A DNA stretch of 64,000 bases from Euglena gracilis (Eukaryota), in the NCBI GenBank assembly GCA_039621445.1, contig CP154954.1, positions 32,140,012 to 32,204,011 of the forward strand, in the 5' to 3' direction. Under the pieces are notes generated by a model. It saw only the letters and a program-made list of their open reading frames with translations, searched no databases and was not told the DNA's origin. This document shows, piece after piece, positions 8,146 to 60,500 of this stretch. Both the position numbers and the translations under genes were made by a program. Numbering within the stretch: position 1 is the first letter of the stretch; each line of letters opens with the position of its first letter.

Positions 8146-9597
8146 TTAGCTTTATTGGGCACCCCCATCATGCCCGAGCTTTAATTTGTGCTGGCTTCAT
8201 TTTAAGGAAGTGTGCAATTCTTGTGGATGGGGGTCCGACCCCAAAGGAATATTTTTGAGAAAGTTGATTTGCACAATATTTTGAGGATGATTATTCCAAA
8301 TTTGAGCTGGAAATAGATGGAAAAGAGATGACGCAAAATTGTGGCGGTTTTTCTAGACCTTAAAGTTTGAAAAAAAATTGAGTGGACAAATTACCTCCCA
8401 CCCGCATCAATTACCCCCCCCCCAAGCAAAAACTGTTGGAGGCTGCTTAGGAGCAGCATGTAGGTGGTGTTAAAGTTTATCTTTTCATTTGGACCTGACA
8501 TTCTCATCGCTAAGGCTCAAATCAAATAAAAATTCATTTCATACCATGTACACAGCGGGGTTGCATTTTGGGGGAGGCTGTCGGTATAACTGTGGGTGCA
8601 GACCTCTTTGCGCATTCCCAAACTTTTCTTGCATTCCGTCCTTTTTGAGTGGCACACTTCAACCGCGGTTGTCCTTGGCCTTGGAACTCCAGAGCAAGAG
8701 GTGTCACCCCCAGGGCAGGTTTTTTTTTACCAACCCGGGGTGCCTTGTACAATGGGAGGCCTGACCACATCAGCCCCCCCCACCCCCCGGCGAGTCAGTT
8801 TTGGGCCCCGGTGACTGAGCCTGTGACTTGAAAATGACCATTTCCGGGCCCAGCGCCAAAGGCGCCGGGGTGTGTGCTATAGCACTATCCACCCCAAAAC
8901 CTGACCTCCCGGGGAGGTCGAAAATGCCCTACCCCCTGCCTGCCCATAGCACCCACCCCTGTGCTATGGGTGTCAACACCCCCACCACCACCCATACAGT
9001 TCCTGGGATTCACAGTTGGCCCTGGGCAATTTGACGGTCCTACCACTGGGTTTGTGGATTGCACAAAAGTCCAAATCAGACTCACATATCAGATGGAGCG
9101 GGAAACTCGTTGGCAAGGCCATTCACAACGCGGCTCTGAGGGATAAGTGGAGCTGCAGGGTACGGCAGAACAGTTTGTAGACTGACAAATTGTACGACAT
9201 AACAGTTTGTCAACTGACCACACCCTACAACCCGTGAACCATCGTTGGGGGGGTCGTACGTCTTCCGACGTGCAACGTCTGGTACCCGCCCCCCCCCCCC
9301 TTGTCGTACGACCGGGTTCCTGCAACCTGTGACCGGGGGGGGGGGGGGGGGGCGTAACACCCCCATGACCTGCAACCTGTGACTGGGGGGTGGTCGTAAA
9401 TGAGGGGTGGTCGTACGACTAGGGGGGGGGGGGTGGAAAAAATCAAGGGAAGAACCCACCTCTGCTGCTCTCATCTTTGCCGTTTTCATTTATACATATA
9501 TACAAATGCATATATACACACACATATGTATATGCATACACACATATATACATATGTTATACATATATATGTGTGTGTATATATATGTATATATACA

Positions 9598-44022: not shown

Positions 44023-47000
44023 GTTGCTGTTGCTGTTGTTGCTGTTGTTGCTGCTGTTGTTGATGTGTGTTTTGAGTTGTTCGTGTGCGTGTTTGTCTGT
44101 GTCTCTGTGCGTCTCTTTCCCTCTCTCTCTCTCTCTCTGTGTGTGTGTGCACATGTGTGTGTGGGGGGACAAAGGAGGCTTGGACTTTGACATTAAGAAG
44201 GCCCTTCAGGGACTGCTTCACCCACCAAAGACAATGACTCCCAGATTCACACCTCTGGGGGGCGGGGGGGGGGGGGGGGGGGGCGTCTGCCCGTCACACA
44301 CCTCCTGTGCGGACATCGGCTCCTTCCAGAATGAGATGTAGGCGCCGCCAGGGGAGCCGGAAAGGGGGGGGGCAAGCCCCGTCGGTCCCGAGTGCAGGTT
44401 CACTTGGCCTCAACCCACCCACCCACTCTCGAAACCCTTGTGGGGTGACACCAGCGTTGAACGAATCTATGGTCCAGGAAACGAATATAAATCAATGTGA
44501 CGTTTCAATAAGAAACCAGTAAAGAAACACGGAGGATGTACACCCCGGAGTGTCTTGTGCCCTTCAATGCACTTGAGGTATGGTTATTCACGCCAGGACA
44601 CTTTCAGTAAGATTTTATCAACTGACACACACAGGGTGAGACGCCTGTTTACCTTCCTTTTTTTATGGTGGAAAATTCGAACAAGAATGTCAACCTTCAA
44701 AGGCAAAAAAAAACCACTCAAATGGGAAACACTGAGATTTGAAAAATGCACTATAAAAACACCGACAGATGCACTATAAAGAATGCACTATAAAGACACC
44801 GAGGTGCTGCGGTGTCCATGGTGCTGGGCATCGACCTCCCCACTGGCATAAAACGCTGAAAGCAAATTGCCGAGTTTTTTTGGAACCAGAAGAATGATTT
44901 TTTCCCTGGGACGCAGAGGAAAAACAAGTCCCCACAGTCTCCTGCAAAAAAATCTGAAAATACGAGACAATTCCCCCCCAAAACGGCCCTCCCCTGGAGG
45001 TTTCCAGCAACGGACCCAAAAATAAGACCCGGGCCCAATTTTGGGAGGGGGTCAGAGGGGGGCGGCTTCCTCCTGCCCTGGGCCAGGGACACCTCGGGCT
45101 GGGGGCCCAGCGCGGCCAGCTCCCGGGCCGTCCGCGTCTCCTCCTCGATGCGCCGGTAGAGGTGGTCCCGGTACCACGCCAGCTCCTCCAGCCGCTCCTC
45201 CAGCCTGGGGGGGCGGGGGGGTCAACCCGAGTCGGGGTTCAGCCTGACCAACCCCCCCCCCCCCCGGGGGGGGGCTCGGATTTCAGGCCCGGGGTGGGGT
45301 TGGGTGGCCAAAATTATTTTTGCCAGGAAGAATTTTTTTAAGGCATTTTTAAGCATTTTCACACATTCTAAGCATTTGGCCCAGATTTTAGGGCCATTTT
45401 AATTCAATCACGGGATTTTAAGGTTTTTTGAAAAGCTCCTACGGTGGAGCAAAATGAAATCACAAAACCTCGGCAAAAGGAAAACAGTTGAAAAAATGAT
45501 TTGGGTGGATAGACAACGATGCCAGAAAATCATTCTTTCCCCAACGTTGGTTCAATGCATGGATGGACCGCCTTGCTGCAGCCTTGGACCTCCTGAAAAA
45601 TAATGTCAAAAGTGCCTTAAAAATTGAAGTGCCTGGATGAACCAAAGGGAGAGGGGGAAAGACCTTGAAAGCTTTGAGGTGGCCAATCTTGCACCGGGGC
45701 CTTATTTGCCCTATTTGCAGAACTGGGTAACCTTCCATTCTTTTTATTTCGCAGGCTTGGGTCCAGGTCTTTGAGGTTCTGCTTATGCCGTCCATAGCCC
45801 ACAGCTGTTTTACGCTACCATCTTCTCAGGTTGAAACTCGGGGCATCAAAGCAAATTCTTATAACTGTTGAAAGAGCGCGGACCATGTTTTGTGTGCTGT
45901 CCCCCCAAACAACCAACTGGCCTGTCCCAACCCCGGTCATCGATTGGGGGTGAGGAATGATCAAAAATGTTGAGACCAGCTTTTGTTGATTGTGAGGTTG
46001 GAGGCATACTCTTGTTCCTTCGCATGGTCCCGGCTTTCTATCACAGTGCACTGCTGGACATGCAGCTCCGCTGAGCACAAAGCATTGCCAAGACTGGGAG
46101 TTGAAAAAATCCCATCCCATCCCATCCTGACAGTGATCGGCCAGGGAAGAGCCCCAGAAAGGGGAAAAGGTCAGATATTAAATTTGGTATCAAACCAGAC
46201 AGAGGTGAGAAAATGGTAACAGCTACAGCAGCAGGGAACACACTGAGAAACACCATGCTCATAATATGTATAATGTACATAATATGTAATATACAAATGA
46301 ATAATACACATATAATATATATAATATATGATATACGTATGCATAATATGTATAATATGTATACAATATATAATGTACATTTATTTATGTATGCAATACA
46401 ATATAAATTAAGCACATAATAATACTATTATACCATTATTTTTTATTTGTTCTCCCTTTACAAGGCCCTGTCCACAGATTTGGTATCTTTCTCATTTAGC
46501 CAGCCGACTTCAGGATGGGCAAGTGAGTTTCCCGGGCGGAGGTCAACCTACCGACCTACCCAACCCACCGGTCAAAAAGCCCTTCAAAGCCCTTTGGTAT
46601 TTTTTTCTTCTTCGTCGGAACAGCTTCTGTATACCACAGTGATAAGCAAACGTCTAGTAATAAATGACGTTGCAGGCAGGCCATCTGCTAGGCAACAGGC
46701 TCACAGCTTTCTTGCTGACTTATAATCCACTTCCGCAAAATCCCCCTACCCCCCCCAAACCCCCCTGGTTTCCAGTGATCTTGGCGGTTTTTTTGGACCC
46801 AAAACACCCGAAAAATCCCCGCGAGCAGAGGTTTCTCTCAGGACCAAAAAGAGGAAGTTGCAGGGAAGGGGGGTGCAGACCCACCCACCCACCCTCTCGC
46901 CCCTCAGGGGGGGGCGCTCAGGGGGACCCACTTTTGGGGGTCAATTTTGGGTAAAAAAATGTTTCCTCCCTCTGGGGGGGCCCCCCCCCCAGGGGGGGCT

Positions 47001-47325: not shown

Positions 47326-49221
47326 CCCGGTGCCTCACACCGCCCGGAGGAAAAAGACGACACACGGCATGCGACGCACTGCGGGTTCGGGTGGCACGGG
47401 TCGAGTTGGAGGATTGAACTGTCATTGGGGCGCTCCAGAAGAAAAAATCGGGGGCCATTTTCTATGCTCCCAGGCTTAACCTCCCACACTGGTAGGTGCA
47501 TAGCGTAAAAATGCCCCGGCCAGTGAACAAAGCGTCCAACTGAATCTACTCAGCGATTGGATTGGCATTTTTATCTCTTTGCTTCTGTTTTGTTCTTTGA
47601 ATGTTTGCGGGCCGCGCCCCGATATTTTTTGGGGGGGAAATCCTTTTTTCAAGGTGGCTGCCCCACCTGTTGGGATGCTAACTGGGGCCGAATCATTTGA
47701 CACACCACTCAAGGTGTGGATGCGCATGGGATGCCTTAAGCAGGTTTTTTCATAACAACCGTCTCAATGCACCACATTGTCAAACAAATATCGAAGCTGA
47801 ATGAGGGTTTCTCCCAACCAGCCAATCAGCAACGGTGGAAGTGAATTTGCTTGCAAAAGCAGGTACACCTACAATTTTGGGATTTTGAACAGACGTTGTG
47901 AGACGAGGGGTGGTGCCTCCGGAAACAAAAGCAATTCAGGGGTACGCCCACTGGTAAGTGTGCTGAACGGCTGCGACTGACTCCAGGGCTGTTTATCTCT
48001 GCAGGAGAGGAAAGTCGCAAACTGGAGATTTTCAATCAGCCCTGGTTTCACCCCAACAACCTGCTGGTGCGACCACAACCCTTGAGGTGGAAAAAATATT
48101 CAGTCCCCCCTCAATCTTTTTTTGCAAAAGGTGTGAGGCACAGAAATAAACCAATAAAATTGTTTGCCACAAGGATTCCACACAATTTGTAGAAAAATCC
48201 GTGAAAGCACACCTTCCCACCTGGGACACTGTCACATGAAAAGTCAGCCAGTACCACAGTACCAGGGACCCTGGCAACTTGCCATGATGACAGATTGGCC
48301 GGTACAGGGGCTTCGGACAGCATCCCGGGCGGGACCTGACAGGTTCTCGGGCATGCCAGCCAGGGGTTTCCATTTAAGAACCTCCGGGGGGGGGGGAGGG
48401 TCATGCGGGCCGGCTAGAAAAAGGTGCTGGCTGGACCCCCCAGGCAGCCAGGTGAGGGGCGGGGGGTTCGGAGGGGGGGGGGTCCGACCTCTGGCAGCTG
48501 GCCCCGGCAGATACCCGAAAAATGGCAGAGATGTCCAACTCCAGCTGGGTTGGGGGTTTTTTTTTAGCTAGAAATCCCGAACCCCTAAAAACCCTAAAAA
48601 CCCTGAAATCCCTAAAAACAGCCCCCTTCAAAAATGCATTTCTTGGCCACTTTGACTCCTTTTTTTCCGGCCCCGCCCGGCTTTGCCGGGCTGGCTAAAC
48701 TTCATTTAAGAGGATCTCCTGGGGGGCCCACAGCCCAGCTGGGAGCTGCTGGCTGGAAAAAAAAACGTGCTGGCTGAATGGAACCCCCCCCGGGGGGGGT
48801 GGCTTGAGAAAACCCTTGGTGACACTGTCCCAGGAACTGGGTGCATAAAATGTCAAAATTTTGAAGGGTATCTGTATCTTAAAAAAATACCATTCTTGTT
48901 TTATTAGCATTGGGAAGAATATGGCAATGCCCAAATGACGAGGTACTAGAAAGATGGTACTAGAAAGATTAAATTTGCGTGGGAAAAGTATTTATGTACT
49001 GCGTTCCATATTTCCAGGTTGGCACGATGAGTTCATGGATGAAAACACAGACCATCAAAATGCGCAATCCAACAAATGGAGCATGCCAACCCGGTCACTT
49101 GAGGGGTTCAAAAGACAAACGTACTGCATCACGCGTCCAATCAACACGGCAGGAGACAGTCCAAGGGTGGGGGCGTGCAGTTAATCCATAGCTGGAGGCC
49201 GGGTTCCCCGCGCCTAGGGTG

Positions 49222-49358
49222 TCACCGCACGTGCCTCAGGACGGCAAAGTGGTCCTCCAGTGAGGGGCGGCGGCCGGCGAAGTGATAATCGCACGTGGAG
49301 CGGAATGCGTCGCCGTGCAGCGCCTGCAGCGTGCGGCAGAACTGCTCCAGCTCGACTC
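49222..49358 (-). CDS. C2orf69: C2orf69-like last exon
   Basis: VELEQFCRTLQALHGDAFRSTCDYHFAGRRPSLEDHFAVLRHVR, TGA stop at 49222-49224. Confidence 0.88.
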
Positions 49359-49449
49359 CCGCCGCCAGCCTTCGCTTTGCAACACCCCATTCCCCCGGAT
49401 GTAAACCCTCCCCCCAAATAATGCCCCCCCTGGATGGGGACTTCAGGCA

Positions 49450-49534
<85 letters not shown>

Positions 49535-49535
49535 T

Positions 49536-49595
<60 letters not shown>

Positions 49596-49600
49596 TAATT

Positions 49601-49633
<33 letters not shown>

Positions 49634-49640
49634 CAACAGC

Positions 49641-49713
<73 letters not shown>

Positions 49714-49715
49714 GC

Positions 49716-49749
<34 letters not shown>

Positions 49750-52700
49750 CAACAACAACAACAACAACAATTTGGTGGAGTTACACAAAACCCCAGCTCC
49801 GCCGCATTGGCCGCACGGTAAATTTTGTAAGACACTGCAGCGATGGGTGTTTTGCGGAGTGAGGTGGGTTGGGCACACTTCCGAACCCTTTTTGGCAGAT
49901 ATCGAGTGAGTCCCAGCGCGCAACAAGCAAAGTGTCTTCCATACTGAAAAGCAGCAAAATCAGGCAGGGGCGGAGAGCCAGGGTTCCAAAAGTGAGGTCG
50001 GGGTGGTGTGACCCCCTCTCTCCCCAGCTGTGTACACCCAAAGCTCACTTTGCCCCCCGGGGCAAGCACAGGTGGCAACGCAGCCGAGGCCGCAGCTGCA
50101 CCATGTATGGGGTGGAGTGGATTTCGATGCAGCGTTGGCCACCGTCAGCAGCTGCCCTCAGGGTTTGATGATGCGACAGACCATCAGGGTGCCAACCAAC
50201 CCATCCCACTGGGGGGGGGTGAAGGGGCGGGTCGTTAGTGTAGTCAAAACGTGAATCCCACGTAGTTTCCAAAACCTTTCATTTCAGCATTTCATGCATC
50301 AAACCCCTGGCTAGCCGAGGCAAACCCTGCTGGACTTTGCCGCCACCCACCGCTCCACGAAGCACAGCAAGGCATCATTTCATCGCCCCCCCCCCCCTTC
50401 ATCAGTTATTGAATTTTGTGTATCGATCAGTTAAGCACATCAGCAATTGTCCTGCACAACAAACCAAATCAAACCAAATTCCATAGCCCAGATGCAGGGG
50501 GCCAATGGCTGGCTTATTTTGGATACACTTTTTTGATTTAAAGGTTAAATGGTAACTTGGATGTTACCATCCTTGGCATCAATTTTTGATTGGGCATTAT
50601 TGAAAGAAACCCAAATGGCTACCCTCCCCTCCCTTGTCGTACGACCTGCAACCTGCGACAGGGGGGCTGGTCGTTAGACCCCCCTAACCTGCAACCTGCG
50701 ACCGGGGGGTGGTCGTTATAATGGGGGTGGTTGTTGTTCACAATATTGACCGATACCAATGGGGACCTGAATTGTCGTCATGGGTGCGCTGAAGGACCTT
50801 GTACAAACTGCGGAGGCTTTCGAGCCATCGCTACGGGTGTGCAAACCATGAGCGCCGGTGGGGAACATGGAAAATGCCTGAAAAAGGCGACAACCTCAAA
50901 AAACCAGCCTTTTTTTGGTTCTGACCTGCGACCTGCGACTGGGGGGTGGTCGTTAAACCCCCCTGACCTGCAACTTTGGACAAGGGGGTGGCCGTTATAA
51001 TGGGTTGTTCTTCCGACAAGGGGGGGGGGAGGGTACCAGCAAAAAACTGTCGACAATATTGAATACCAGGAATGCAACTCCTTCAGCGATGGACCCTAAA
51101 AAGGGACAAAACACAAAACACACACAAGTCAAAAACAAGCTTGCATTTCCCCCTGCCTTCTTTTGCATGTGATTTGGTGCGTGGCATTTGGCATTTGGCA
51201 TTCTTAAAAAGAAGTTTCCAGCCACATTGTGCTTCATCAGCTTTGGTGAAAAATGACTCTGGTACCGATGAACAATGAATGAAGGAGTCAAATTGCAGAA
51301 CAATATGCACAAACAGTACACCCCCCCCCAAATAAGCCCCGGGTCATATTTCTGGGTCCGTTCCTGGAAACCTCCAGGGGGGGGGGGGGCTTATTTTTGG
51401 AGTTTTTCTTGACCAACCCGGGCCTGAAAAAAACATCATTTTTCAGGATCCCAAAAGCATTTCAAATTCTCTTTTGGCGCTTTGAACCATGTGCAAATTG
51501 GTGTAAGTTGACATTTGGCATTTGGCATGTTTTTTTTTGCACTTCAAAAATCTGAAAAAAATTGAAATTTCATCATTTTTGTGCGTGAAATTGGGGGTTT
51601 TGGCAATTTTCAGGTATATTTTTTCAAATTTTCACCGTCTTTGGCGCTTCGTGCTGTCAGGGGGGGTCTTATTTTTGGGGGTCTTATTTTTGGATTTTTG
51701 CTTGATCGGCCCAGGGGGAGTCTTATTTTGGGGGGGGTCTTATTTTTTGAATTTTTGCTCGAAGGGAGGGTCTTGTTTTTGGGGGGTCTTACTTTTGGTA
51801 TCATTGATCGGGAATGCTCACAATTTCCTCCTTAGGCAACACGTAGATGACAAACACTGAGATCGCAACAGACCACCGTCACAGGGGTTGAGGGGGACAG
51901 CGGAGGTGAAAGGCGGCCTGGGCGTTGCACAGCGGCGGGCCAGGGGCCGGGGTAGGCGCCCGGCAGGTTGGAGTTGCCGGCGTCGACCCAAATGAGGCGC
52001 CGCACGAGGCGGAGGGCGAAGGGGCTGTCCGGGGCGGGGGCGCCGTCGCGGGGGTCATCCACCGCTTCCTCCGGCGGCGGCGGGCGGCTGGCGACGGTTG
52101 AGGGTTGAGGCGGGCCCTGGCCCCAAACAAACCCGGGGCGAGGGGCTTTTTTAAAGACCCCCGGGGGGGATTCCGCATGCCGGCTGGAAAAAGGTGCTGC
52201 CGATCTCCCCCCCCCCAGGGGTACGGGTCTGGGGGTCTGGCCAGGTGGTAGCTGGACCTGGAGGGCACCTAAAAACAGGCGAAAGCCTTGCCATTTCTGG
52301 CCATTTTGACCCCCTGTTCCCAATATTTTCGGTCCACTGGCTTCGCTGGGGTGTGGCCCGAACTTTATTTCAGTGGCCCCCACAGCCCGGCTGGCTGGAC
52401 CCCCCCCCCAGGGTAGGGTCCCCTCCGCGTGAGAAAACCCCTGCCCGTTCTTTGCAAGGCGGCCCTGGACGAAATGGAAAAAAAGAAACTTTTGTCCCAG
52501 CGCAACAAGGAAAATAAAAAGGAAAAATAAGTGGAAAATTGGAGGAAACGGGTTCACAGAAAAAATGTGATCAAAAGTTCGCTGCACAGAGTTGATTGAT
52601 TGCAAAAATCCCCAACGTGCCAGTTCAGGCGCTGTCCCCCCTCCCTCGAAAAGAGTCGATATCATCCTGAACATCAACGCCGCCGTTTAAAAATAATAAA

Positions 52701-55700
52701 AATGGGGGTGCCGGTGGGCCAATACTGGCGACCCTGACAGCTTCAGGAGGAGGGGGACGCAATACTTCCCCAGACATGACAGTTGTTGTTGGGGGGGTTA
52801 TTGCCGAGAACCTTAGATGTGGTTCAATCCACGGCAAATCTGCAAGCAAATTTTACACGGCGCACGCAAATTCCACATTGAGAAAACAATCTAGAACTTC
52901 CACATTGAGTGCTGTGGAGGCCCCACCACCAAGGAAACACAACACTAGGGCCCACGCTGCTTTCTGTGGCCGACGCTGCAGGGGAGCTGCCCGCCAGGCT
53001 TCTTTTTAAGACCCCCCCCCCGGGGGCAGAGGTCCCCCCACTCACCCGGCCCAAGGCAGAACCTGCACTTCCAAGATCGGGCCGTCTGAAGGCATTTCCC
53101 AAAAAATTTTCGGCGCTTCACGCTGAAACCCATATCCCCCTGGGGGGGGTCTGGCCTGGAACCCACCCCCGGGGGAGGGGGGCTTCGAGTTGAACAGTAG
53201 CCTGGCGCCCGCCAGGCAGCAGCAGATGGTTCAGCACGAGGCATCCCTTGCTGAAGCCCAGCAAGACGAGGGGCAGGGGCGGCAGCGCGACGCCGTGCTG
53301 CCGGGCCAGCGCCCGCTGCACAGAGGCCATCAGAGCTGGGGGCAGGCCCCCCGGCCCCCGGCCCCCCCTCCCAGTTGCTGAGGCTTCTTGTCCGTCCATG
53401 GCCGGCGCCAAAAGCGGGGGGGCGGGGGGTGGGGGGCAACGCGGACTTTCGCAATATGCAATGCAAAAAAAAAGAATGCAAATTTGGGAACTTTCTGAAT
53501 CTGAAAATGCGCAATGTGCATTCAAAACTGACAAAAACCGAACAAAATTTGGCCACAGAAATAAAGACCAAACCCGAACCAAAAAGTCCACCATGAAATC
53601 TTCCAAATCGAAATAATATCACAGCAGAACTGAAAAATTTACCAGGAAAAACAAACTGAAAAAATGCAAAAAAAAACTCACCAGCACAAACAGAGCACAA
53701 AAAAAAACCAACCGCAATTATCAAGTGATTTCTTCCCCTTTGAGCATGTGGCTTCACAAAACATGATGTTTCTATAATTAGTTGGAACTCCAACCAGGGA
53801 GATGTATTTGGATGGGGGACTGAGTTGAAAAATCACAAACGGTAGAATTCCATTGACATTGAGGCAATTAAACAAAATCCGACTGTAAGTTGGTGCAAAA
53901 AAAACTTTTTCAACAGCAACCCACAAGAAGCCTGAAGCAACTGGCAACTATCATTTCCTGTCCTGAAATGCTCCATCATGGGGAGGGTTAAATTGATTTC
54001 TCCCACATGAAAATTGTATTTCTCCCACATGCCGAAAACCTGCTTGCGACTGCAAGTTCCTTTTTCCTGATGTCAGCGTTTCCTCACGTTAATGGAATCC
54101 AGTGGCTTTTCAGGGTTACCCCTAACAGGCATTCTCGCCATTTTGCAAATTCCAACGAAGACTCACTCCAGGTGGGGGGGGGGGAGGTGAATGAACTTTT
54201 ATGGGGTATGGGGTAGTTATGGGGTAGTTAGGGCTCAGTGTTGTCCGGTCGCTTTCGTTGCACCCATCAGCACTCCCCGAGGGGATGGCGGGGGGGCTGG
54301 GCTGCAGCTGGCAGCGGGTGGTCACTTCCCCCACCCCCTCGGGGCCAACCACGAGGGAGCCGTCCCCGTCCAGGGAGGACAGCAGGTTGGCATACACGCT
54401 GCGCCCGTCCGGGTGCTGGTATGCCTCAGGGCTCTGGGCCGGATGGCATGGTGTGATGGTGTGGGGGGGGGCACACTGTACGGTGTCTGGGGTTCTGTTC
54501 CAGCCGGGGCCGCATCGGTTGGGTTCCAATAACATCACCCAACTGTCACCCTATCATACCAAACCAATTATACCATACCCCTTCGTTGGCAGAAAAAATG
54601 AGCTGGTTTGGCAGCTGCTGTGGCCCGGAGTTGTGTCAGCATGGACCGGGAGTTGTGTGAAGTTGAAGGTGGGGGTGTCCCACCCAGCCGGGTCACAGGG
54701 TTGGCAAAAGGGGCGAGCAACAGCGCCCTGCCCGGCCGGCTGGATCAGGAAGAGGTTCGTATCAACGTGTTTCCCCTGCCGTTGCAGAAGAGCGACCCAT
54801 TTGGGAGGTATGGTTTGCATTTTGAGGGACACCTCCCTGGAATTAAATCATCAGCAAATATTTCTTAGATATAAATTGAGAAAATAAATCAATTTATGAT
54901 AAATTAACTTTAAAAAATGAAAACAATTTAATTTTTTTAAAAAATGCTCTGGGCACGCCATCGAAAGACTTTCAGCATGCTAGCTCAGACCAGAGTAGGT
55001 TGTTTCTGATCACCAATTCCACCTCCATTCAGAATTCATTTGCATTGTATTGGCAGTTGGCGTTTCTTGTGCGTTGTGATGGTGCCACAACTTTATCTTC
55101 ACCCTGTATCTACAATCATTTCAAACGACAACTTTGGGGGACATAAATACCATCAATTCCTTTGGGTCAAACATAATCATTTCAAAATAGAAGGCCGGGG
55201 AAGGGTTGCAGCAGGGGACAAGACAGGGAAACTGGCCTTCAGAAGGTCTAGCGTCCCCTCATATGCATACTCTGCAAACTGAGGGTACCAGAAGGGCTGA
55301 TTTCTTTGAAGGCATCTTAAAACCCTCAGAAAAAAACTCTTAAAAAACCTCAAAAAATCAACTTTTGGTCAAATAAAAAATCATTTTGGCAGAATTTTAT
55401 CTGACTGAGCAAATCTCGAAATCTCGGCAAAAACACGCCAACTTCAGAAAAGAGAATGATTTCTGGCATGCTTGTACATCGGCAATCCACCCAAAACTCG
55501 GAAATGCGTTTTTTTTTGGCTCTGTAATTTTCGACCCCCATTCGACTCTTGGACTGCTCTTGCACCGTCTTGAAAAACAGCAATTTGAGAAAAGCCTTAA
55601 AAAACTTAACAAAATGCTTCAAAAATTGCCTGTGGAATTTTGAAAATTGATTCTTTTGGCTTGAAAAATAGCCCTGGGCACCGGCCGGTCAGCATGGCCG

Positions 55701-56360
55701 CACGCTCTGCCTGTACATCCCCCGGGAAGAAGAGGAGGGTCTGGCGGGCGGTGGGGGTGCACACCGTGTAGACGTCCCGGAGGGGCCGCCATTCCTTTGA
55801 CTGTGGCCTGGAGGGAGGCCCCAGAAGGCCAGGTGGCACACTGCTCGCCACGTCACACCGCTCACCATCCCAGCCATGCCAGCTCAGATGGAAACACCTG
55901 CAATGCTTCGCTGAGGCAGCAAATTTCCCGTAACAGGGAAATGGCCAGTGATCACACTTATCTTTATCTCGTTGAAACAGAATGGCTCCTGTCGTTGAAA
56001 CAGAATCGCTCCCGTCAGCTGACCGAAATGTCGCAAAGAAAATGGGCTTCTTATGTGCATGATCTTCACAATTTTTTCCCCTTGATGCAGAACCTCTCCC
56101 CAAAACAAGCCCATTGTGTTCTGTGAGGGTAAATGACAAAAATACTGCAAAAACAAAATACCACCACTAAAACCGGTACTATTAATATTGTTGTCACTGG
56201 GTTTGGCCATCGCCTTTCTCTATCGTTCCAGTCTTCTATTCCAGTGGGTCCTCTGGGAGATGGCACCAGAGGGGGGATTTCCAGCAGAAGCAAGGGAAAA
56301 GAGGACCCCGGCGTTGCAGTGCAGCTTGCTGCGCCCCACCACCCCGCGCAGCACTAACAT
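49222..56360 (-). CDS. C2orf69: C2orf69/UPF0565-family protein gene (multi-exon, non-conventional introns)
   Basis: Family motifs recognised in the correct order on the minus strand: MLVLRGVVG..CN/DVY (56313-56360, 55680-55776 with LLFFPGDVQ), YPQFAEYAYEGTLDLLKASFP (55225-55286), DTNLFLIQPA (54734-54763), YQHPDGRSVYANLL (54303-54421), LVLLGFSKGCLVLNHLL (53208-53337), QLPCSVG (~52970-52989), RRLIWVDAGNS (~51924-52135), IEIHSTPYMV (50080-50153), VELEQF..YHFAGRRPSLEDHFAVLRHVR* (49222-49358). These match my recollection of the human C2orf69 motifs YFPGDVQ, GFSKGCVVLNQ, WLDGGHS, HVTPYQ and SIENHF. Exon structure between 52135 and 52970 is unresolved. Confidence 0.9.
49451..49770. repeat. Compound (AAT)n-(AAC)n microsatellite in the last C2orf69-like intron
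   Basis: Directly visible. Confidence 0.97.
50080..50153 (-). CDS. C2orf69: C2orf69-like penultimate exon (HSTPY motif)
   Basis: CIEIHSTPYMVQLRPRL; there is a 1-nt phase discrepancy at its 5' part (see findings). Confidence 0.75.
50622..51033. mobile_element. TA-flanked MITE of the same family, inside a C2orf69-like intron
   Basis: TA|CCCTCCCCTCCCTTGTC...GACAAGGGG...GAGGG|TA; CTGCAACCTG repeats shared with ~9180-9430. Confidence 0.75.
51318..51795. mobile_element. MITE with GGGGGTCTTATTTT subterminal repeats
   Basis: CCCCCCAAATAAGCCCC at left, inverted GGGGGTCTTATTTT repeats at 51660-51795; similar ends at ~63920-63990. Confidence 0.55.
51924..52135 (-). CDS. C2orf69: C2orf69-like internal exon (WVDAGNS motif); 5' boundary approximate
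   Basis: ...PEEAVDDPRDGAPAPDSPFALRLVRRLIWVDAGNSNLPGAYPGPWPAAVQ; followed by gccCAGG. Confidence 0.75.
52995..53204. mobile_element. hAT-like MITE that constitutes intron 6 of the C2orf69-like gene
   Basis: TIRs CAGGCTTCTTTTTAA / TTGAACAGTAGCCTG; TSD ctgcccgc/gcgcccgc; interior co-linear with 39630-39881. Confidence 0.88.
53208..53337 (-). CDS. C2orf69: C2orf69-like exon 6 (GFSKG nucleophile-elbow-like motif)
   Basis: ALMASVQRALARQHGVALPPLPLVLLGFSKGCLVLNHLLLPGG. Confidence 0.9.
54303..54421 (-). CDS. C2orf69: C2orf69-like exon 5
   Basis: YQHPDGRSVYANLLSSLDGDGSLVVGPEGVGEVTTRCQLQ; flanked by CTG(-8..-6) and CAG(+4..+6). Confidence 0.8.
54734..54763 (-). CDS. C2orf69: C2orf69-like exon 4 (30 nt)
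   Basis: DTNLFLIQPA; the next intron is gggCAGGGC...GCCCTGaggca. Confidence 0.8.
55225..55286 (-). CDS. C2orf69: C2orf69-like exon 3
   Basis: YPQFAEYAYEGTLDLLKASFP; phases match both neighbouring exons. Confidence 0.8.
55680..55776 (-). CDS. C2orf69: C2orf69-like exon 2 (FFPGDVQ motif)
   Basis: DVYTVCTPTARQTLLFFPGDVQAERAAMLTGR; followed by intron start gccCAGGGCT. Confidence 0.85.
56313..56360 (-). CDS. C2orf69: C2orf69-like exon 1 (MLVLRGVVGRSKLHCN)
   Basis: ATG at 56360, 8 nt downstream of a TAG (possible trans-splice acceptor). Joins in frame to DVYTV. Intron ends pair (+4 GGGGTC with GGCCCC ending at -6). Confidence 0.65.
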
Positions 56361-57924
56361 GGGGTGGGCTACAGTGGAACCTGGGCAGAAGGTGGGATGG
56401 AAACATGAATTAACACATTGACAGTGCCGTGACCATTGGCCGTGTGTGTGTATGTTTGTATGTATGCATGTATTCATGCATGTATGCATGCATGCATGCA
56501 TACGTGTGAGTGTGTCTTAGACGGCCGTAAAGGCACTTAAGGGGTTTTGGGCCCAAAAACCGGATCGTCCGCGGTTTTGGGACCGGTCTTGCTGACGGAC
56601 ACGGTCACAATCTGCCTGCGCCCTGGGTGAGGGTCGCGCGTGCGCAGGTGCGACCGGGAAGGCACCTGCGATTGTTGTTTAAAATACTGAAGTGAAAAGT
56701 CCCCCCGACAGAGCTGCACCGCCTCCCCATCCGCAGCCCTCACAATGGCCGGTGCCCTGCTGCCCCTGTAGCGCGGCCGTGACCGCGCAGTCGGCCATCT
56801 GTGCGAGACGGGCTCTGTCAACTGTTTGGGATACTGGGTCCGATGTGGGTGGGGCGTCAGGTTGTCACCGGTGTGCAGGGCGCCGCAACCCGTAGACCGG
56901 AAACCCCTGGCAGACGTGTGAATGTGCAGTGTTCTGCGTGAATACAGCGTGGGTGGCTGTGCACATCTCGGGCGGTACATGTCAGGCGGACAGTGCTTAA
57001 GCAATGTGTAGGGGGAGTTCCTTCGGGACGGCGAAAATGCGTCCGACCAGCGCCCAGCGGGCACCAGCAGCCTCAACGACAGGAGTCCCCGGATCAACAG
57101 ACACACGCAGTGCATCCCACCTGGTTCCAAACGTGCGGGTGGGTGAGGGCAGACAACGATCGTCCCTCATGTGCAGGTGCGCTCCAATTTGGTGAAAATT
57201 GAAAATTTGAAAACTCAGTCGCAGGTGCGCCTGAGGGAACTGTGCACGGTGGCCATTGGTGTGAGCGAACCGGGTTGTATCGTACCGGAAGCAGCTTAGA
57301 ACGGGACAAGGTGAGGATGATACTTCCGGTCAACCGCCTGGCCCCCCCCGCCGGAATTCGGGACCCATGAAAGCACTCCAAACTGTTACGACAAACGCAG
57401 AGCCACGGGCCGTTGTTAGGTCATATCGCTGACGTGACGAGTGAACACTGCACTCCGAAACGAGAGAATGACACGTCCGCGGTGCGCAGCTGCGCCAGGG
57501 CATACATTCTGTGTTCCGTTTGTACTGTGTACTCTGAACTCAGAACCAGGCGCACCTGCGCTTGGTTCCCGTGCTGCGTGCCTGAGTGTAAAACGGTGCG
57601 CGCATGCGCACGCATGCCGTGTGTGAGGGTTCCACTGTCCGTGTGAGAAACACAAACCACACATACAACAGCGTTTGTTATGTGCACTCAGTCCCGTGCG
57701 CACCTGCGCCTGGATCTCATTTGTTTTTTTAAAATAAGACGGTGCCAAGCGCACATGCGCACGGACAGCCAGGGTGACTGGTGCAAAGGTCCGCAGAAAG
57801 GGTCACAGCGGTGGCCAGTGAAGACACCCGCGGATCGGTTGGGGTGGGAGAATTGAGTTACCAAGGGTCAGTGTTGGTGTGCCACGGTGACGGAAACCAG
57901 TGACAGAGCTCGCCTCGGCCCTAA

Positions 57925-60500
57925 GTGTGGTCAGGCGCCGCTGCGCAGCGCCTCCTCGTCCCCGTCCCCGTTGCTGCGGCCGCCCCCGCCCTCGCTGCTG
58001 ATGTCGAGCTCCACCCCACCGGGCCGCGGCATCCGGCAGCGTGGGACGTAGCAGTACAGCGATGCACAGCGGCGGGCGGCGGACTCTGGCAAGGTGTTGG
58101 GCGAGCTGGCAGCGTTGCACCTGGCCCGGACCTTCGACGAGTTCGTCCGGGGCGTGTTGGCCCCGCCGGAGTACCACCTGCTGCCATTCGTCACGCACGT
58201 GGCGCACATGCGCCGGCCGCTGCGGACGCGGGGCCACGGCACGCTGCTGGAGGAGCTGCAGTGGAACCCTCAGCGACGGAGTACTACCAGACTGCTGCAG
58301 AACGCCTGGGCGTACTACCGCATCGCCCGGGACGCGGCGTGCCCGCGGCAGGACCAGCCCCACGTGCCCGCCGGCGACATGCCGATGGGGTGGACGCGGG
58401 CGGTGTCCCGCTACCTCCGGTCCGCCGGCATCCCCCCCGAGGCGCCGCTGTGGGACGTGTCGGTGCGGCGGGAGCTGGCGGCCCAGCGGCTGCGGCATGT
58501 GGGCGGACATGGAGGGGGCGCACGTGGTTGTCTGGTTTGACAACCTGTACCGCCAGCGGTACGTGACCACCCCGCGGGTGCCCCACGCGTCCCTGAATGG
58601 CACCATCATGGCCGTGATGCGCCGCACGGACCCCGCCGCCGCGCGCCGGGAGCCCGTCCCGGCCCTGCCCGCCGTGCGCGTGCTGCTGGCCGACGCCCCG
58701 GCGCAGCGGGGCTCGTGCCGGTGGTGGAGCGAGTCCCTGGCGGCCTTCGCCCGCAGCCCGCTGGTGGACCTCATCGCGCTCTGCCGCGGCCCGCTGGAGG
58801 AGGAGCAGTTCCGGGTGCCCCTCGACGTGCCCCGCAAAAACGCCTGGTCCCCGGTCTGGCGACCGTTCAACCTGTGCGAGACGGTGGTTGGCGCACAGGT
58901 GGGCCTTCTGCATACCCTCCGCTTCCTCGAGGAGAACGTGCTCCCGCAGGTGGCCGGCCCCGTCCTTGTCCTGGCGGACGAGAACATCTGGTACCGCGTC
59001 GCGCGGCTGCGGTACGGCCAGCTCTCCGCCACCTGCTGGGACCTGGCCACCACGTTCGACCGGCTGCCTCTGCTGTACGGCGTCTGGCACCCGTACAAGC
59101 AGCTGCTGCACGCCCTGCACCGCCGCTTCCTGCCGTTCTACCTGTTCCTGAAGAACGGCACGCTGGAGGTGACGGGGCTGCTGGTGGGCGAGGAAGAGCG
59201 GGCGCAGCTGCGCGCGTGGCAGGAACGGTTGGCGGTGCGGGTGGGGCGGGTGGAGGCGGAGGTGCGGCCCGGGTGGAGGCCCTGCGGTCCGAGCGTGCGC
59301 AGGTGCGCCCGGGGACAACGGCGGTGCAGGATGCGTCCGGCTTTGTGGGGCCCCTGCAGGTAGCGGGAGCGTCCGGGCAGGCGGCGGAGGAGGAGCTGCG
59401 GCAGGGGTGCCTGGCGCTGCAGCGGCTGTGGACGGAGGCGACGGTGGTGGACGGCTGGCGGGACCTGGTGGAAGTGTGGGCCCCGGCCGCCCTGGTGTTG
59501 GGCTGGATGGTGCGGTCCTGCAGCTGGGACGGACGTGGCGCGGGCAGCGGTTGGCAGGCCCGTGAGGTGCTGCAGACGGCCCTGCTCCTGCTGGTGCACC
59601 TTGAGGTGGACCTGCCGTCGGCGGCCCCGCCGGCCCACGCCCCCTGGGCCAGCGGCCACCCCCCGCCCGAGGCCGCCGCGGCCTTGCTGGCGGAGCTGCG
59701 GGCCGCGGAGCGCGGCCACCCGCCGCGGGCCCGGTCCTCCTCGGAGTACGAGCGGACGGTGTCCTGCGCGCTGCTGCTCTGGACGGAGTGGCACGACCGC
59801 CTGCCGGCGTGCTGCTACTCCGAGGAGCTGAACGAGGCCGCCATCAGCCGCCTCGGGAAGGCCCTGAAGCAGCACCTGCAGTCGCAGTCCTTCGACGAGG
59901 CGATGGACCTCTACATCGCCGTGCGACCGGGCACCCCGGGGGCCAGGCGCATCGGCGCCGGCGGCGTGGGGCGGGAGTGGGTGGCGCAGTCCACGGCGCG
60001 GCTCCGGAAGCTGCTGCGACGCGCCGCGGCGGAGCGCACCTGCGCCCGGCGGAGCAGTCGCAACGTCCGCAGCCGCGGCGGATCGGGACGGTCGCGGTCG
60101 GCCACCGGCGTCCGGCGCCGCTCAGCCCGCCGCGCCGGCGGGGTCCACCGCTGCGGCGGGCTTGGCGGCGCCGGAGCTGGCCACCAAGGTGGTCACGTAC
60201 GTGGAGCGGCGCGGGGCGAAGGAGTGCATGGCGTAGGCCGCGTGGCCTTCCTGGTGGCGCGCACCGCGGTACGCCCGCCGCGCGCCCCCGCCCGCCGACG
60301 ACCTGGCCGACGTGCTGCGCTGCAGCCTGCTCCTGATGCTGCGCGACGAGGAGCCCTCGGCCGACGCGGCGGCGGAGCTGGACCTGCTGGCGGCCCGGCA
60401 GCCGGAGATCACCGCCGCGGCGCTGCGGGCGGAGTACGCCGGCGTCCCAGTGCTGGAGCGCGCCCCCAAGACCCGGGCCGCGGGCCAGCCCCCGGCCCAA
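57925..60500 (+). pseudogene. Frameshifted, intronless DDE-type transposase-like ORF (DUF6589 / Transib-RAG1-like motif order)
   Basis: Overlapping GC-rich ORF segments (58094-58540, 58041-59363, 58715-60751, 60312-60662) give VVVWFDN ... VLVLADENIW ... LYGVWHPYK ... YSEELNEAA, a D...D...H...E order typical of RNase H-fold transposases. Several frameshifts. Family assignment is inference. Confidence 0.6.

What the first reader, a model, noticed from the sequence alone, without database searches (positions are those of the whole stretch)
49359..56312. The same +n/-(n+2) end-pairing register holds for most C2orf69-like introns, even where CAG/CTG has decayed
Seen, with junctions fixed by protein homology and frame: 54422-54733 gggCAGGGCgCTG..CAGaGCCCTGaggca; 53338-54302 gccCAGcccccc..ggggggcCTGccccc; 55287-55679 gccCAGGGCT..AGCCCTtctggt; 54764-55224 has TCCCCTGC from +7 pairing with GCAGGGGA ending at -9; 49359-50079 has GCCA (+4..+7) pairing with TGGC (-9..-6); 55777-56312 has GGGG pairing with CCCC. 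None is GT-AG. Inference: this is an age series from a recognisable MITE (intron 6) to introns in which only stem geometry is kept, suggesting the splicing machinery measures distance from the stem rather than reading a dinucleotide.
Basis: partly seen in the sequence, partly recalled or inferred. Interest (0 to 1): 0.75.

Follow-up and report, generated by a model that had tools for sequence, protein, structure and literature searches.

The report
Euglenid nonconventional introns, known pairing rule
Nine introns of one Euglena-type gene lack GT-AG ends and instead pair their two ends in one fixed register; this is real, but it is the rule already published for euglenid nonconventional introns.

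Summary
RNA contigs from three runs and raw RNA-seq reads from a fourth give nine introns in a minus-strand gene at 49.2-56.4 kb. None of the 20 allowed border placements is GT/GC-AG. Summed longest runs are 64 at that register against 28-45 at registers that sliding cannot reach. 0 of 7454 re-pairings of the 3' ends reach 64.

The rule is not new. Pairing of +4,+5,+6 with -6,-7,-8, "complementarity maintained rather than sequence", was published in 2014 and 2016 (PMC3935182, PMC4770533). The 3-nt and 5-6-nt spacers were tested genetically in 2025 (PMC12501133). The MITE origin idea is also in print.

The "age series from a recognisable MITE" has no support here. Intron 54422-54733 has no flanking direct repeat and no second copy in the window. 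Stems of introns without CAG/CTG are as long as those with it.

One modest point: 6 of 9 spliced introns fall outside the 2025 CDG/CH'G code.

The parts
56313..56376 (-). Exon 1. First ATG of the open frame at 56360-56358. The 5' limit is not fixed.
   Evidence: Contigs of X1 and X2 extend 59-65 nt beyond the joint at 56312. Frame. No in-frame stop within 150 nt upstream, so the start codon is provisional.
55777..56312 (-). Intron I1, 536 nt, slide 1. GGG at +4..+6 and CCC at -8..-6. Six consecutive pairs from +4 in register 2.
   Evidence: Joint in X1, X2 and 2 raw reads of X21; pairing.
55680..55776 (-). Exon 2, 97 nt
55287..55679 (-). Intron I2, 393 nt, slide 3. CAG at +4..+6 faces CTT at -8..-6, so +4/-6 is unpaired. 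Six pairs from +5.
   Evidence: Joint in X1, X2, X5 and 3 raw reads.
55225..55286 (-). Exon 3, 62 nt
54764..55224 (-). Intron I3, 461 nt, slide 2. Starts GT, ends TT. Ten consecutive pairs from +7 with -9 in register 2; +5/-7 paired, +4 and +6 unpaired.
   Evidence: Joint in X1, X2, X5 and 2 raw reads; (2 of 5000 shuffles reach the run).
54734..54763 (-). Exon 4, a micro-exon of 30 nt
54422..54733 (-). Intron I4, 312 nt, not slidable. N3-CAG ... CTG-N5, followed by T as first exon letter. 6 + 3 pairs in register 2.
   Evidence: Joint in X1, X2, X5 and 1 raw read, 0 letters fit either side; no other copy in the window.
54303..54421 (-). Exon 5, 119 nt
53338..54302 (-). Intron I5, 965 nt, not slidable. 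N3-CAG ... CTG-N5|A. 3 + 7 pairs around one C-C mismatch at +7.
   Evidence: Joint in X1, X2, X5 and 2 raw reads.
53218..53337 (-). Exon 6, 120 nt. The only piece with a Pfam match (C2orf69, below threshold).
   Evidence: PF10561, E 7.2e-05, 22.7 bits against a cut-off of 25, profile positions 195-214 of 301.
52073..53217 (-). Intron I6, 1145 nt, slide 1. TGG/CCG; nine consecutive pairs from +4, the first a G-U.
   Evidence: Joint in X1, X2, X5 and 1 raw read; (24 of 5000 shuffles).
51924..52072 (-). Exon 7, 149 nt
50364..51923 (-). Intron I7, 1560 nt, slide 2. CAG faces CTT. 4 pairs (+5..+8) and 5 pairs (+13..+17) in register 2; not significant alone. Holds dispersed repeats.
   Evidence: Joint in X1, X2, X5 and 2 raw reads; (3275 of 5000 shuffles); repeats.
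50333..50363 (-). Exon 8, a micro-exon of 31 nt
50154..50332 (-). Intron I8, 179 nt, slide 1. N3-CAG ... CTG-N5|A. Nine perfect pairs from +4.
   Evidence: Joint in X1, X2, X5 and 2 raw reads.
50080..50153 (-). Exon 9, 74 nt
49359..50079 (-). Intron I9, 721 nt, slide 1. Starts GT, ends GG.
   Evidence: Joint in X1, X2, X5 and 3 raw reads.
49094..49358 (-). Exon 10. Stop codon at 49224-49222, then 3' UTR.
   Evidence: X5 contig from 49094.

Best explanation
The region is one protein-coding gene on the minus strand (288 codons, weakly C2orf69-like) of a euglenid-type nuclear genome. It is interrupted by nine ordinary nonconventional introns.

Shown: they are removed from RNA at non-GT/AG borders.

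Shown: in each, the two intron ends are inverted repeats that pair so that +n faces -(n+2). The helix begins at +4 or +5. That leaves about 3 unpaired letters after the 5' junction and 5 before the 3' junction.

Shown: junctions follow the weak pyrimidine|purine pattern.

Inferred from the literature, not tested here: the helix brings the two junctions together, and an unknown non-spliceosomal machinery cuts at fixed offsets from it. The exons are ligated and the intron is released as a full-length circle.

My own inference: register 2 means both cut products would carry a 2-nt 3' overhang if the helix is extended on paper to the cut sites. That is the geometry of RNase III-type cleavage (a recalled property). 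The polarity is opposite to that of the tRNA bulge-helix-bulge motif (also recalled).
For: - Nine RNA joints in up to 4 runs from 4 studies.
- One open frame after splicing.
- 0 of 20 allowed placements is GT/GC-AG.
- Register 2 stands out: sum of runs 64 against 28-45, and 0 of 7454 derangements reach 64.
- +5 is paired in 9 of 9 and +6 to +9 in 8 of 9 each, while +2 and +3 are paired in 1 and 2 of 9.
- +1 is a purine in 8 of 9, the first letter of the next exon is a purine in 8 of 9, and the last letter of the upstream exon is a pyrimidine in 8 of 9.
- 7 of 9 introns are slidable, against 84.4% reported for E. agilis.
- These features are the published definition: PMC3935182, PMC4770533, and PMC11170887, which gives CCAGG at +3..+7 and CCTG at -9..-6.
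- Spacer genetics are in PMC12501133.
- Circular product: I saw only citing passages.
- RNase III has been proposed in general terms in PMC12621601.
Against: - The organism is coded by the tools and no genome is held. 'Euglenid' therefore rests on the intron type alone.
- X1, X2 and X5 are only guessed to be RNA. The run on record as RNA gives just 1-3 reads per joint.
- I7 alone is not better than shuffles (3275 of 5000).
- Duplex energy is a weak discriminator in this G+C-rich sequence: true partners average -26.6 kcal/mol, 72 mismatched partners -22.2 (sd 6.8). The minimum-energy duplex of I4 does not use the register-2 stem.
- For 7 of 9 introns the exact border, and so the register, is chosen among 2-4 placements.
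- 6 of 9 introns do not fit the genetically defined code N3CDG/CH'GN5-6|R at any allowed placement.
- I3 leaves +6/-8 unpaired, and I2 and I7 leave +4/-6 unpaired. These were rare or absent among the 55 introns of PMC4770533.
- The letters around the cut sites are mostly unpaired, which does not fit a plain RNase III substrate.
Confidence: 0.9

Rival explanations
1. One reading: the nine introns are one age series of MITE insertions. It runs from a still recognisable element (54422-54733) to old copies in which only the stem geometry survives.
For: All introns end in inverted repeats. 7 of 9 have 1-3 nt direct repeats at the junctions. A MITE-like origin is a published hypothesis.
Against: - The supposed young element has no junction repeat, no second copy in the window, 59% G+C and low RNA depth, 4.7 in its own X1 contig.
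- Apart from I7's internal tandem copies, no intron matches another intron; the matches that I2, I5, I6 and I7 have elsewhere in the window are interior pieces, none at an intron end.
- Stems of introns without CAG/CTG (10, 9, 7, 6 pairs) are not shorter than those with CAG/CTG (6+3, 3+7, 9).
- 1-nt repeats are expected anyway from the Y|R pattern at both junctions.
- Age cannot be measured without orthologues, and none could be fetched.
Confidence: 0.1
2. The register is an artefact: chance pairing in G+C-rich sequence, plus freedom to choose the junction placement.
For: Mismatched 5' and 3' ends also pair well: a run of 6 or more in 19 of 72 combinations, and mean duplex energy of -22.2 kcal/mol. 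7 of 9 borders are slidable.
Against: - The two non-slidable introns are in register 2 with no freedom.
- The sum statistic is never reached in 7454 derangements, and registers that sliding cannot reach give 28-45 against 64.
- The register-2 placement is independently the best or joint best by the Y|R rule in 7 of 7.
Confidence: 0.03
3. They are spliceosomal introns with unusual or mis-placed borders (GT/GC-AG or AT-AC at other positions).
For: Two introns begin with GT at the chosen placement.
Against: 0 of 20 allowed placements has GT/GC..AG or AT..AC termini. Borders are fixed by RNA to within 0-3 nt. A 5' GT in such introns is explained in print as a purine preference at +1 (PMC4770533).
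Confidence: 0.03

Closest known systems
Euglenid nonconventional introns (model of Milanowski et al. 2014 and 2016; PMC3935182, PMC4770533)
   Same: - Non-GT/AG borders.
- Ends pair so that +4,+5,+6 face -6,-7,-8.
- Complementarity is kept rather than sequence.
- Purine at +1 and at the start of the next exon; pyrimidine at the end of the upstream exon.
- Short direct repeats make the borders slidable.
All were seen here.
   Different: Nothing in kind. In detail, +6/-8 is unpaired in I3 and +4/-6 in I2 and I7. In their 55 introns +5,+6/-8,-7 always paired and +4/-6 failed once. CAG/CTG occurs here in 3 of 9 against 33 of 55.
Noncanonical splicing code 5'-N3CDG-/-CH'GN5-6|R (Nomura et al. 2025, PMC12501133)
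   Same: Same spacer geometry: 3 letters before the helix and 5 after it. I5 and I8 fit the code fully; I4 fits except for the purine.
   Different: 6 of 9 RNA-confirmed introns do not carry CDG/CH'G at any allowed placement. They belong to the 38.8% of E. agilis nonconventional introns that the paper leaves outside the code. The paper's Datasets S7-S8 and SI figures on derivative motifs could not be read.
MITEs and transposon-derived introns ('introners'; review PMC11282704)
   Same: Terminal inverted repeats, short junction repeats, non-coding, mostly under 1.6 kb.
   Different: No repeated family, no target-site duplication at the best candidate, and not A+T-rich. Here the inverted repeat works at the RNA level.
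RNase III-type cleavage of RNA duplexes (proposed for noncanonical introns in PMC12621601, passage seen)
   Same: Register 2 equals a 2-nt 3' overhang on both products if the helix is extended to the cut sites. This is my inference; the RNase III product geometry is recalled.
   Different: The letters at and next to the cut sites are mostly unpaired (+2 in 1 of 9 and +3 in 2 of 9). No enzyme is known and nothing was tested here.
tRNA and archaeal bulge-helix-bulge introns and Ire1-type mRNA introns (raised in PMC3935182)
   Same: Structure-defined, spliceosome-free cutting followed by ligation, with circular intron products.
   Different: Here both cuts lie on the exon side of a purely intronic helix, with the 3' cut further out. 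As recalled, the bulge-helix-bulge motif has the cuts on either side of a 4-bp helix. Not tested.

Membership tests
Euglenid nonconventional introns | Borders are not GT/GC-AG | tested here: met
   0 of 20 RNA-allowed placements of the 9 introns.
Euglenid nonconventional introns | Base pairing of +4,+5,+6 with -6,-7,-8 brings the ends together | tested here: met
   All three pairs in 5 of 9 introns and two of three in 3 of 9. I3 has one of three, with a 10-pair stem from +7 in the same register. Register test.
Euglenid nonconventional introns | Pyrimidine|purine pattern at both junctions | tested here: met
   Upstream exon end is a pyrimidine in 8 of 9, +1 a purine in 8 of 9, -1 a pyrimidine in 6 of 9, next exon starts with a purine in 8 of 9.
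Euglenid nonconventional introns | Excised as a full-length circular RNA, after the conventional introns | not tested
   No back-joined reads were among the 15 joints listed; 11 more were not shown.
Euglenid nonconventional introns | Host is a euglenid (or diplonemid) | not testable with these tools
   Organism names are coded and no genome is held.
Nomura 2025 code N3CDG/CH'GN5-6|R | C-D-G at +4..+6, complementary C-H-G ending 5-6 nt before the junction, purine as first exon letter | tested here: not met
   Met in full by 2 of 9 (I5, I8). I4 lacks the purine. 6 of 9 lack the motif pair at every allowed placement.
MITE (for intron 54422-54733) | Terminal inverted repeats | tested here: met
   10 positions with one mismatch. 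All nine introns have such repeats.
MITE (for intron 54422-54733) | Target-site duplication | tested here: not met
   0 letters fit either side of the joint.
MITE (for intron 54422-54733) | Many copies in the genome | tested here: inconclusive
   No other copy in the 64-kb window. The whole genome is not held.
C2orf69 protein family (PF10561) | Pfam match above the gathering score | tested here: not met
   Only exon 6 matches, at 22.7 bits against a cut-off of 25, E 7.2e-05. The spliced protein could not be handed to the tool, so the family assignment stays probable.

The most novel reading that the evidence does not exclude
The universal determinant of euglenid nonconventional splicing is the 2-nt staggered register of the terminal helix, not the CAG/CTG letters. 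Two thirds of the introns of this gene are spliced without that motif. The stagger is the footprint of an RNase III-like double-strand ruler nuclease, which leaves 2-nt 3' overhangs that an RNA ligase then seals into mRNA and intron circle.
Probability: 0.15. Interest if true: 0.6.

Novelty: already known. Interest (0 to 1): 0.15.

Why it matters
Little changes for the field. The gene adds nine RNA-confirmed examples to a rule described in 2014-2016 and tested genetically in 2025.

Its small use is as a natural test set. Six of nine efficiently removed introns lack the CDG/CH'G motif that point mutagenesis found essential in one model intron, yet all keep the register. They are ready candidates for the published knock-in assay, to ask what substitutes for the motif.

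The trans-acting machinery is still unknown. The constant 2-nt stagger is a constraint that any candidate nuclease must satisfy.

Tried and rejected
- The look-up of sequencing runs: no RNA holder listed. The runs with small shares were laid instead.
- Whole-genome search for copies of intron 54422-54733: no genome is held for this window.
- Orthologous loci in metagenome contigs: exon 7 (49 aa) gave 599 pattern matches, none confirmed by tblastn. No compensatory-change test across species was therefore possible.
- Variants among the runs: 0 of 39 listed variant places lie in the stem zones; 25 more were not shown. This gives no covariation evidence either way.
- Duplex energy: true partners are only 4.4 kcal/mol better on average than 72 mismatched partners (sd 6.8), and true partners rank best in none of the nine sets. 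Energy was dropped as a test in favour of the register statistic.
- BLAST of each intron against the window: only interior repeats of I2, I5, I6 and I7 match elsewhere. No shared intron family.
- Pfam on eight long open frames and seven exon translations: only one sub-threshold C2orf69 match.
- Rfam on 48800-57200: only low-complexity matches far below gathering scores at 56441-56508.
- Earlier findings of this scan: nothing on record.
- Print search for RNase III: a search for 'nonconventional introns' with 'RNase III' found one paper. Its passage proposes the enzyme family but, in the passage seen, does not mention the 2-nt stagger. I did not search other wordings, so I do not claim the point is unpublished.
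- I ran no further search on the family name, since it does not bear on the verdict.


Full report
WHAT IS THERE

The stretch 49.2-56.4 kb holds one gene on the minus strand. I laid Logan contigs of three runs (X1, X2, X5; kind only guessed as RNA) and raw reads of one run on record as RNA-seq (X21) on window 48900-57000. The four runs come from four studies.

Nine skips appear. Eight are present in one contig of each of the three contig runs; the ninth (55776-56311) is in X1 and X2 only. All nine have 1-3 raw reads in X21.

In + coordinates, with the number of letters that fit either side of the joint, the skips are:
- 49358-50078 (1)
- 50154-50332 (1)
- 50362-51921 (2)
- 52072-53216 (1)
- 53338-54302 (0)
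- 54422-54733 (0)
- 54763-55223 (2)
- 55287-55679 (3)
- 55776-56311 (1)

Joining the exons gives one open frame of 288 codons, from an ATG at 56360 to a stop at 49224-49222, with no internal stop. The start is provisional, because there is no in-frame stop within 150 nt upstream.

Only exon 6 matches Pfam: C2orf69, 22.7 bits against a cut-off of 25, E 7.2e-05. 'C2orf69-like' is therefore probable, not shown. I number the introns I1 to I9 in the direction of the gene.

CHECK OF THE OBSERVATION

None of the 20 allowed placements of the nine introns has GT/GC..AG termini.

The longest runs of consecutive pairs among +1..+16 are 6, 6, 10, 6, 7, 9, 4, 9 and 7.

Letters at +4..+6 and -8..-6:

| Intron | +4..+6 / -8..-6 |
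|---|---|
| I4, I5, I8 | CAG/CTG |
| I2, I7 | CAG/CTT |
| I1 | GGG/CCC |
| I6 | TGG/CCG |
| I9 | GCC/GGC |
| I3 | TTG/AAC, with a 10-pair stem starting at +7 |

IS IT MORE THAN CHANCE?

- The summed best runs are 64 at register 2. Registers that sliding cannot reach give 28-45. Registers 0 and 4 (45 and 51) share stems with register 2 through sliding.
- Re-pairing 5' ends with the 3' ends of other introns never reaches 64 (0 of 7454 derangements, maximum 53).
- Shuffling each 3' end reaches the observed run in 2 to 371 of 5000 trials for eight introns. For I7 it does so in 3275 of 5000. I7's stem is split 4 + 5, so that intron is not significant alone.
- By position, +5 is paired in 9 of 9 and +6 to +9 in 8 of 9 each. 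+4 is paired in 6 of 9, +2 in 1 of 9 and +3 in 2 of 9.

The weak point is that 7 of 9 borders are slidable, and each slide changes the register by 2. Two things answer this. The two non-slidable introns sit in register 2 without any freedom. The register-2 placement is also the best, or in one case joint best, by the separate pyrimidine|purine junction rule in 7 of 7 slidable introns.

Duplex energy does not discriminate well in this G+C-rich sequence: mean -26.6 kcal/mol for true partners against -22.2 (sd 6.8) for 72 mismatched ones. The minimum-energy duplex of I4 uses another pairing.

WHAT IT IS

These are ordinary euglenid nonconventional introns. Every feature is in the published description.
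- PMC3935182 (passages) names +4,+5 paired with -7,-6 as the most conserved feature. It proposes MITE-like elements as the source.
[quoted passage not shown] CAG/CTG occurs in 33 of 55 introns. It also describes the purine and pyrimidine preferences at the junctions.
- PMC11170887 (section 10) reports CCAGG at +3..+7 and CCTG at -9..-6 in E. gracilis. That fits the GCC seen here at +1..+3 in 5 of 9 introns.
- PMC12501133 (Results and Discussion read; supplements not readable) found 84.4% of E. agilis introns slidable. By knock-in it showed that a 3-nt donor spacer is strict, that 5-6 nt are accepted at the acceptor, and that pairing beyond the motif is needed. Single changes in CAG or CTG abolish splicing of the tested intron. 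Its code N3CDG/CH'GN5-6|R covers 61.2% of nonconventional introns.

The test it asked for (moving the stem register in a minigene) has been done.

WHERE THIS GENE ADDS A LITTLE

- Only 2 of 9 introns fit the 2025 code in full; I4 fails only the purine. 6 of 9 lack the motif pair at every allowed placement, yet are removed in all runs that cover them.
- I2 and I7 carry CTT where single changes of CTG were lethal in the model intron.
- I3 keeps the register, but its continuous stem starts at +7/-9. The constant is therefore the register rather than the distance to the first stable pair.

THE 'AGE SERIES FROM A RECOGNISABLE MITE'

I find no support for this.
- Intron 54422-54733 has no junction repeat and no second copy in the window.
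- It is 59% G+C and has low RNA depth.
- Apart from I7's internal tandem copies, no intron matches another intron; the matches elsewhere in the window are interior pieces of I2, I5, I6 and I7.
- Stems of introns without CAG/CTG are as long as those with it.
- The 1-nt junction repeats follow from the Y|R pattern at both ends.

Age cannot be judged without orthologues. One metagenome scan found none, and the other exons were too short to use. The genome is not held.

MECHANISM

Shown here: the borders, the register and the unpaired spacers.

Taken from print, not tested: spliceosome-independent removal and circular products (passages; I did not read the original circle paper).

My inference: if the helix is extended on paper to the cut sites, register 2 gives a 2-nt 3' overhang on both the intron and the exon pair. 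That is the product geometry of RNase III enzymes (recalled). An RNase III-plus-ligase route has been proposed in general terms (PMC12621601). Against it, the letters at the cut sites are mostly unpaired.

VERDICT

Interest is low.

Noticed in passing
window 50526-50796 and 51339-51880 (inside intron I7): Dispersed short repeat families: a 35-nt unit in 5 copies and a G-run followed by TCTTATTTTTGG in 8 copies. Summed contig depths are 400-1700, against 38 for the exons. Similar pieces lie at 9289-9431 and 44987-45050. Probably a high-copy element or expressed repeat.
   Followed up: partly
window 49443-49780 (inside intron I9): About 340 nt of (AAT)n followed by (CAA)n microsatellite. Read laying skipped it as a repeat.
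   Followed up: no
window 54734-54763 and 50333-50363: Two micro-exons of 30 and 31 nt, each flanked on both sides by nonconventional introns.
   Followed up: no
window 52169-53070 (inside intron I6): A joint skipping 900 nt with four other letters (CCCC) in between. It stands in all three contig runs and one raw read, with only 21 letters on the shorter side. It could be a shorter allele or copy of the intron, or a repeat artefact at two similar G/C-run motifs.
   Followed up: no
window 56438-56515 (upstream of the start codon): A TGCA/TGTA-type simple repeat. It gave the only Rfam matches, all far below gathering scores.
   Followed up: yes
intron 5' ends of I1, I2, I5, I6, I7: GCC at +1..+3 in 5 of 9 introns, and G at +1 in 8 of 9. 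This is more uniform than the 'N3' of the 2025 code suggests. It partly matches the CCAGG consensus at +3..+7 reported for E. gracilis.
   Followed up: partly
window 58000-60000: G+C rises to 0.74 in a 2-kb bin, against about 0.5 elsewhere.
   Followed up: no
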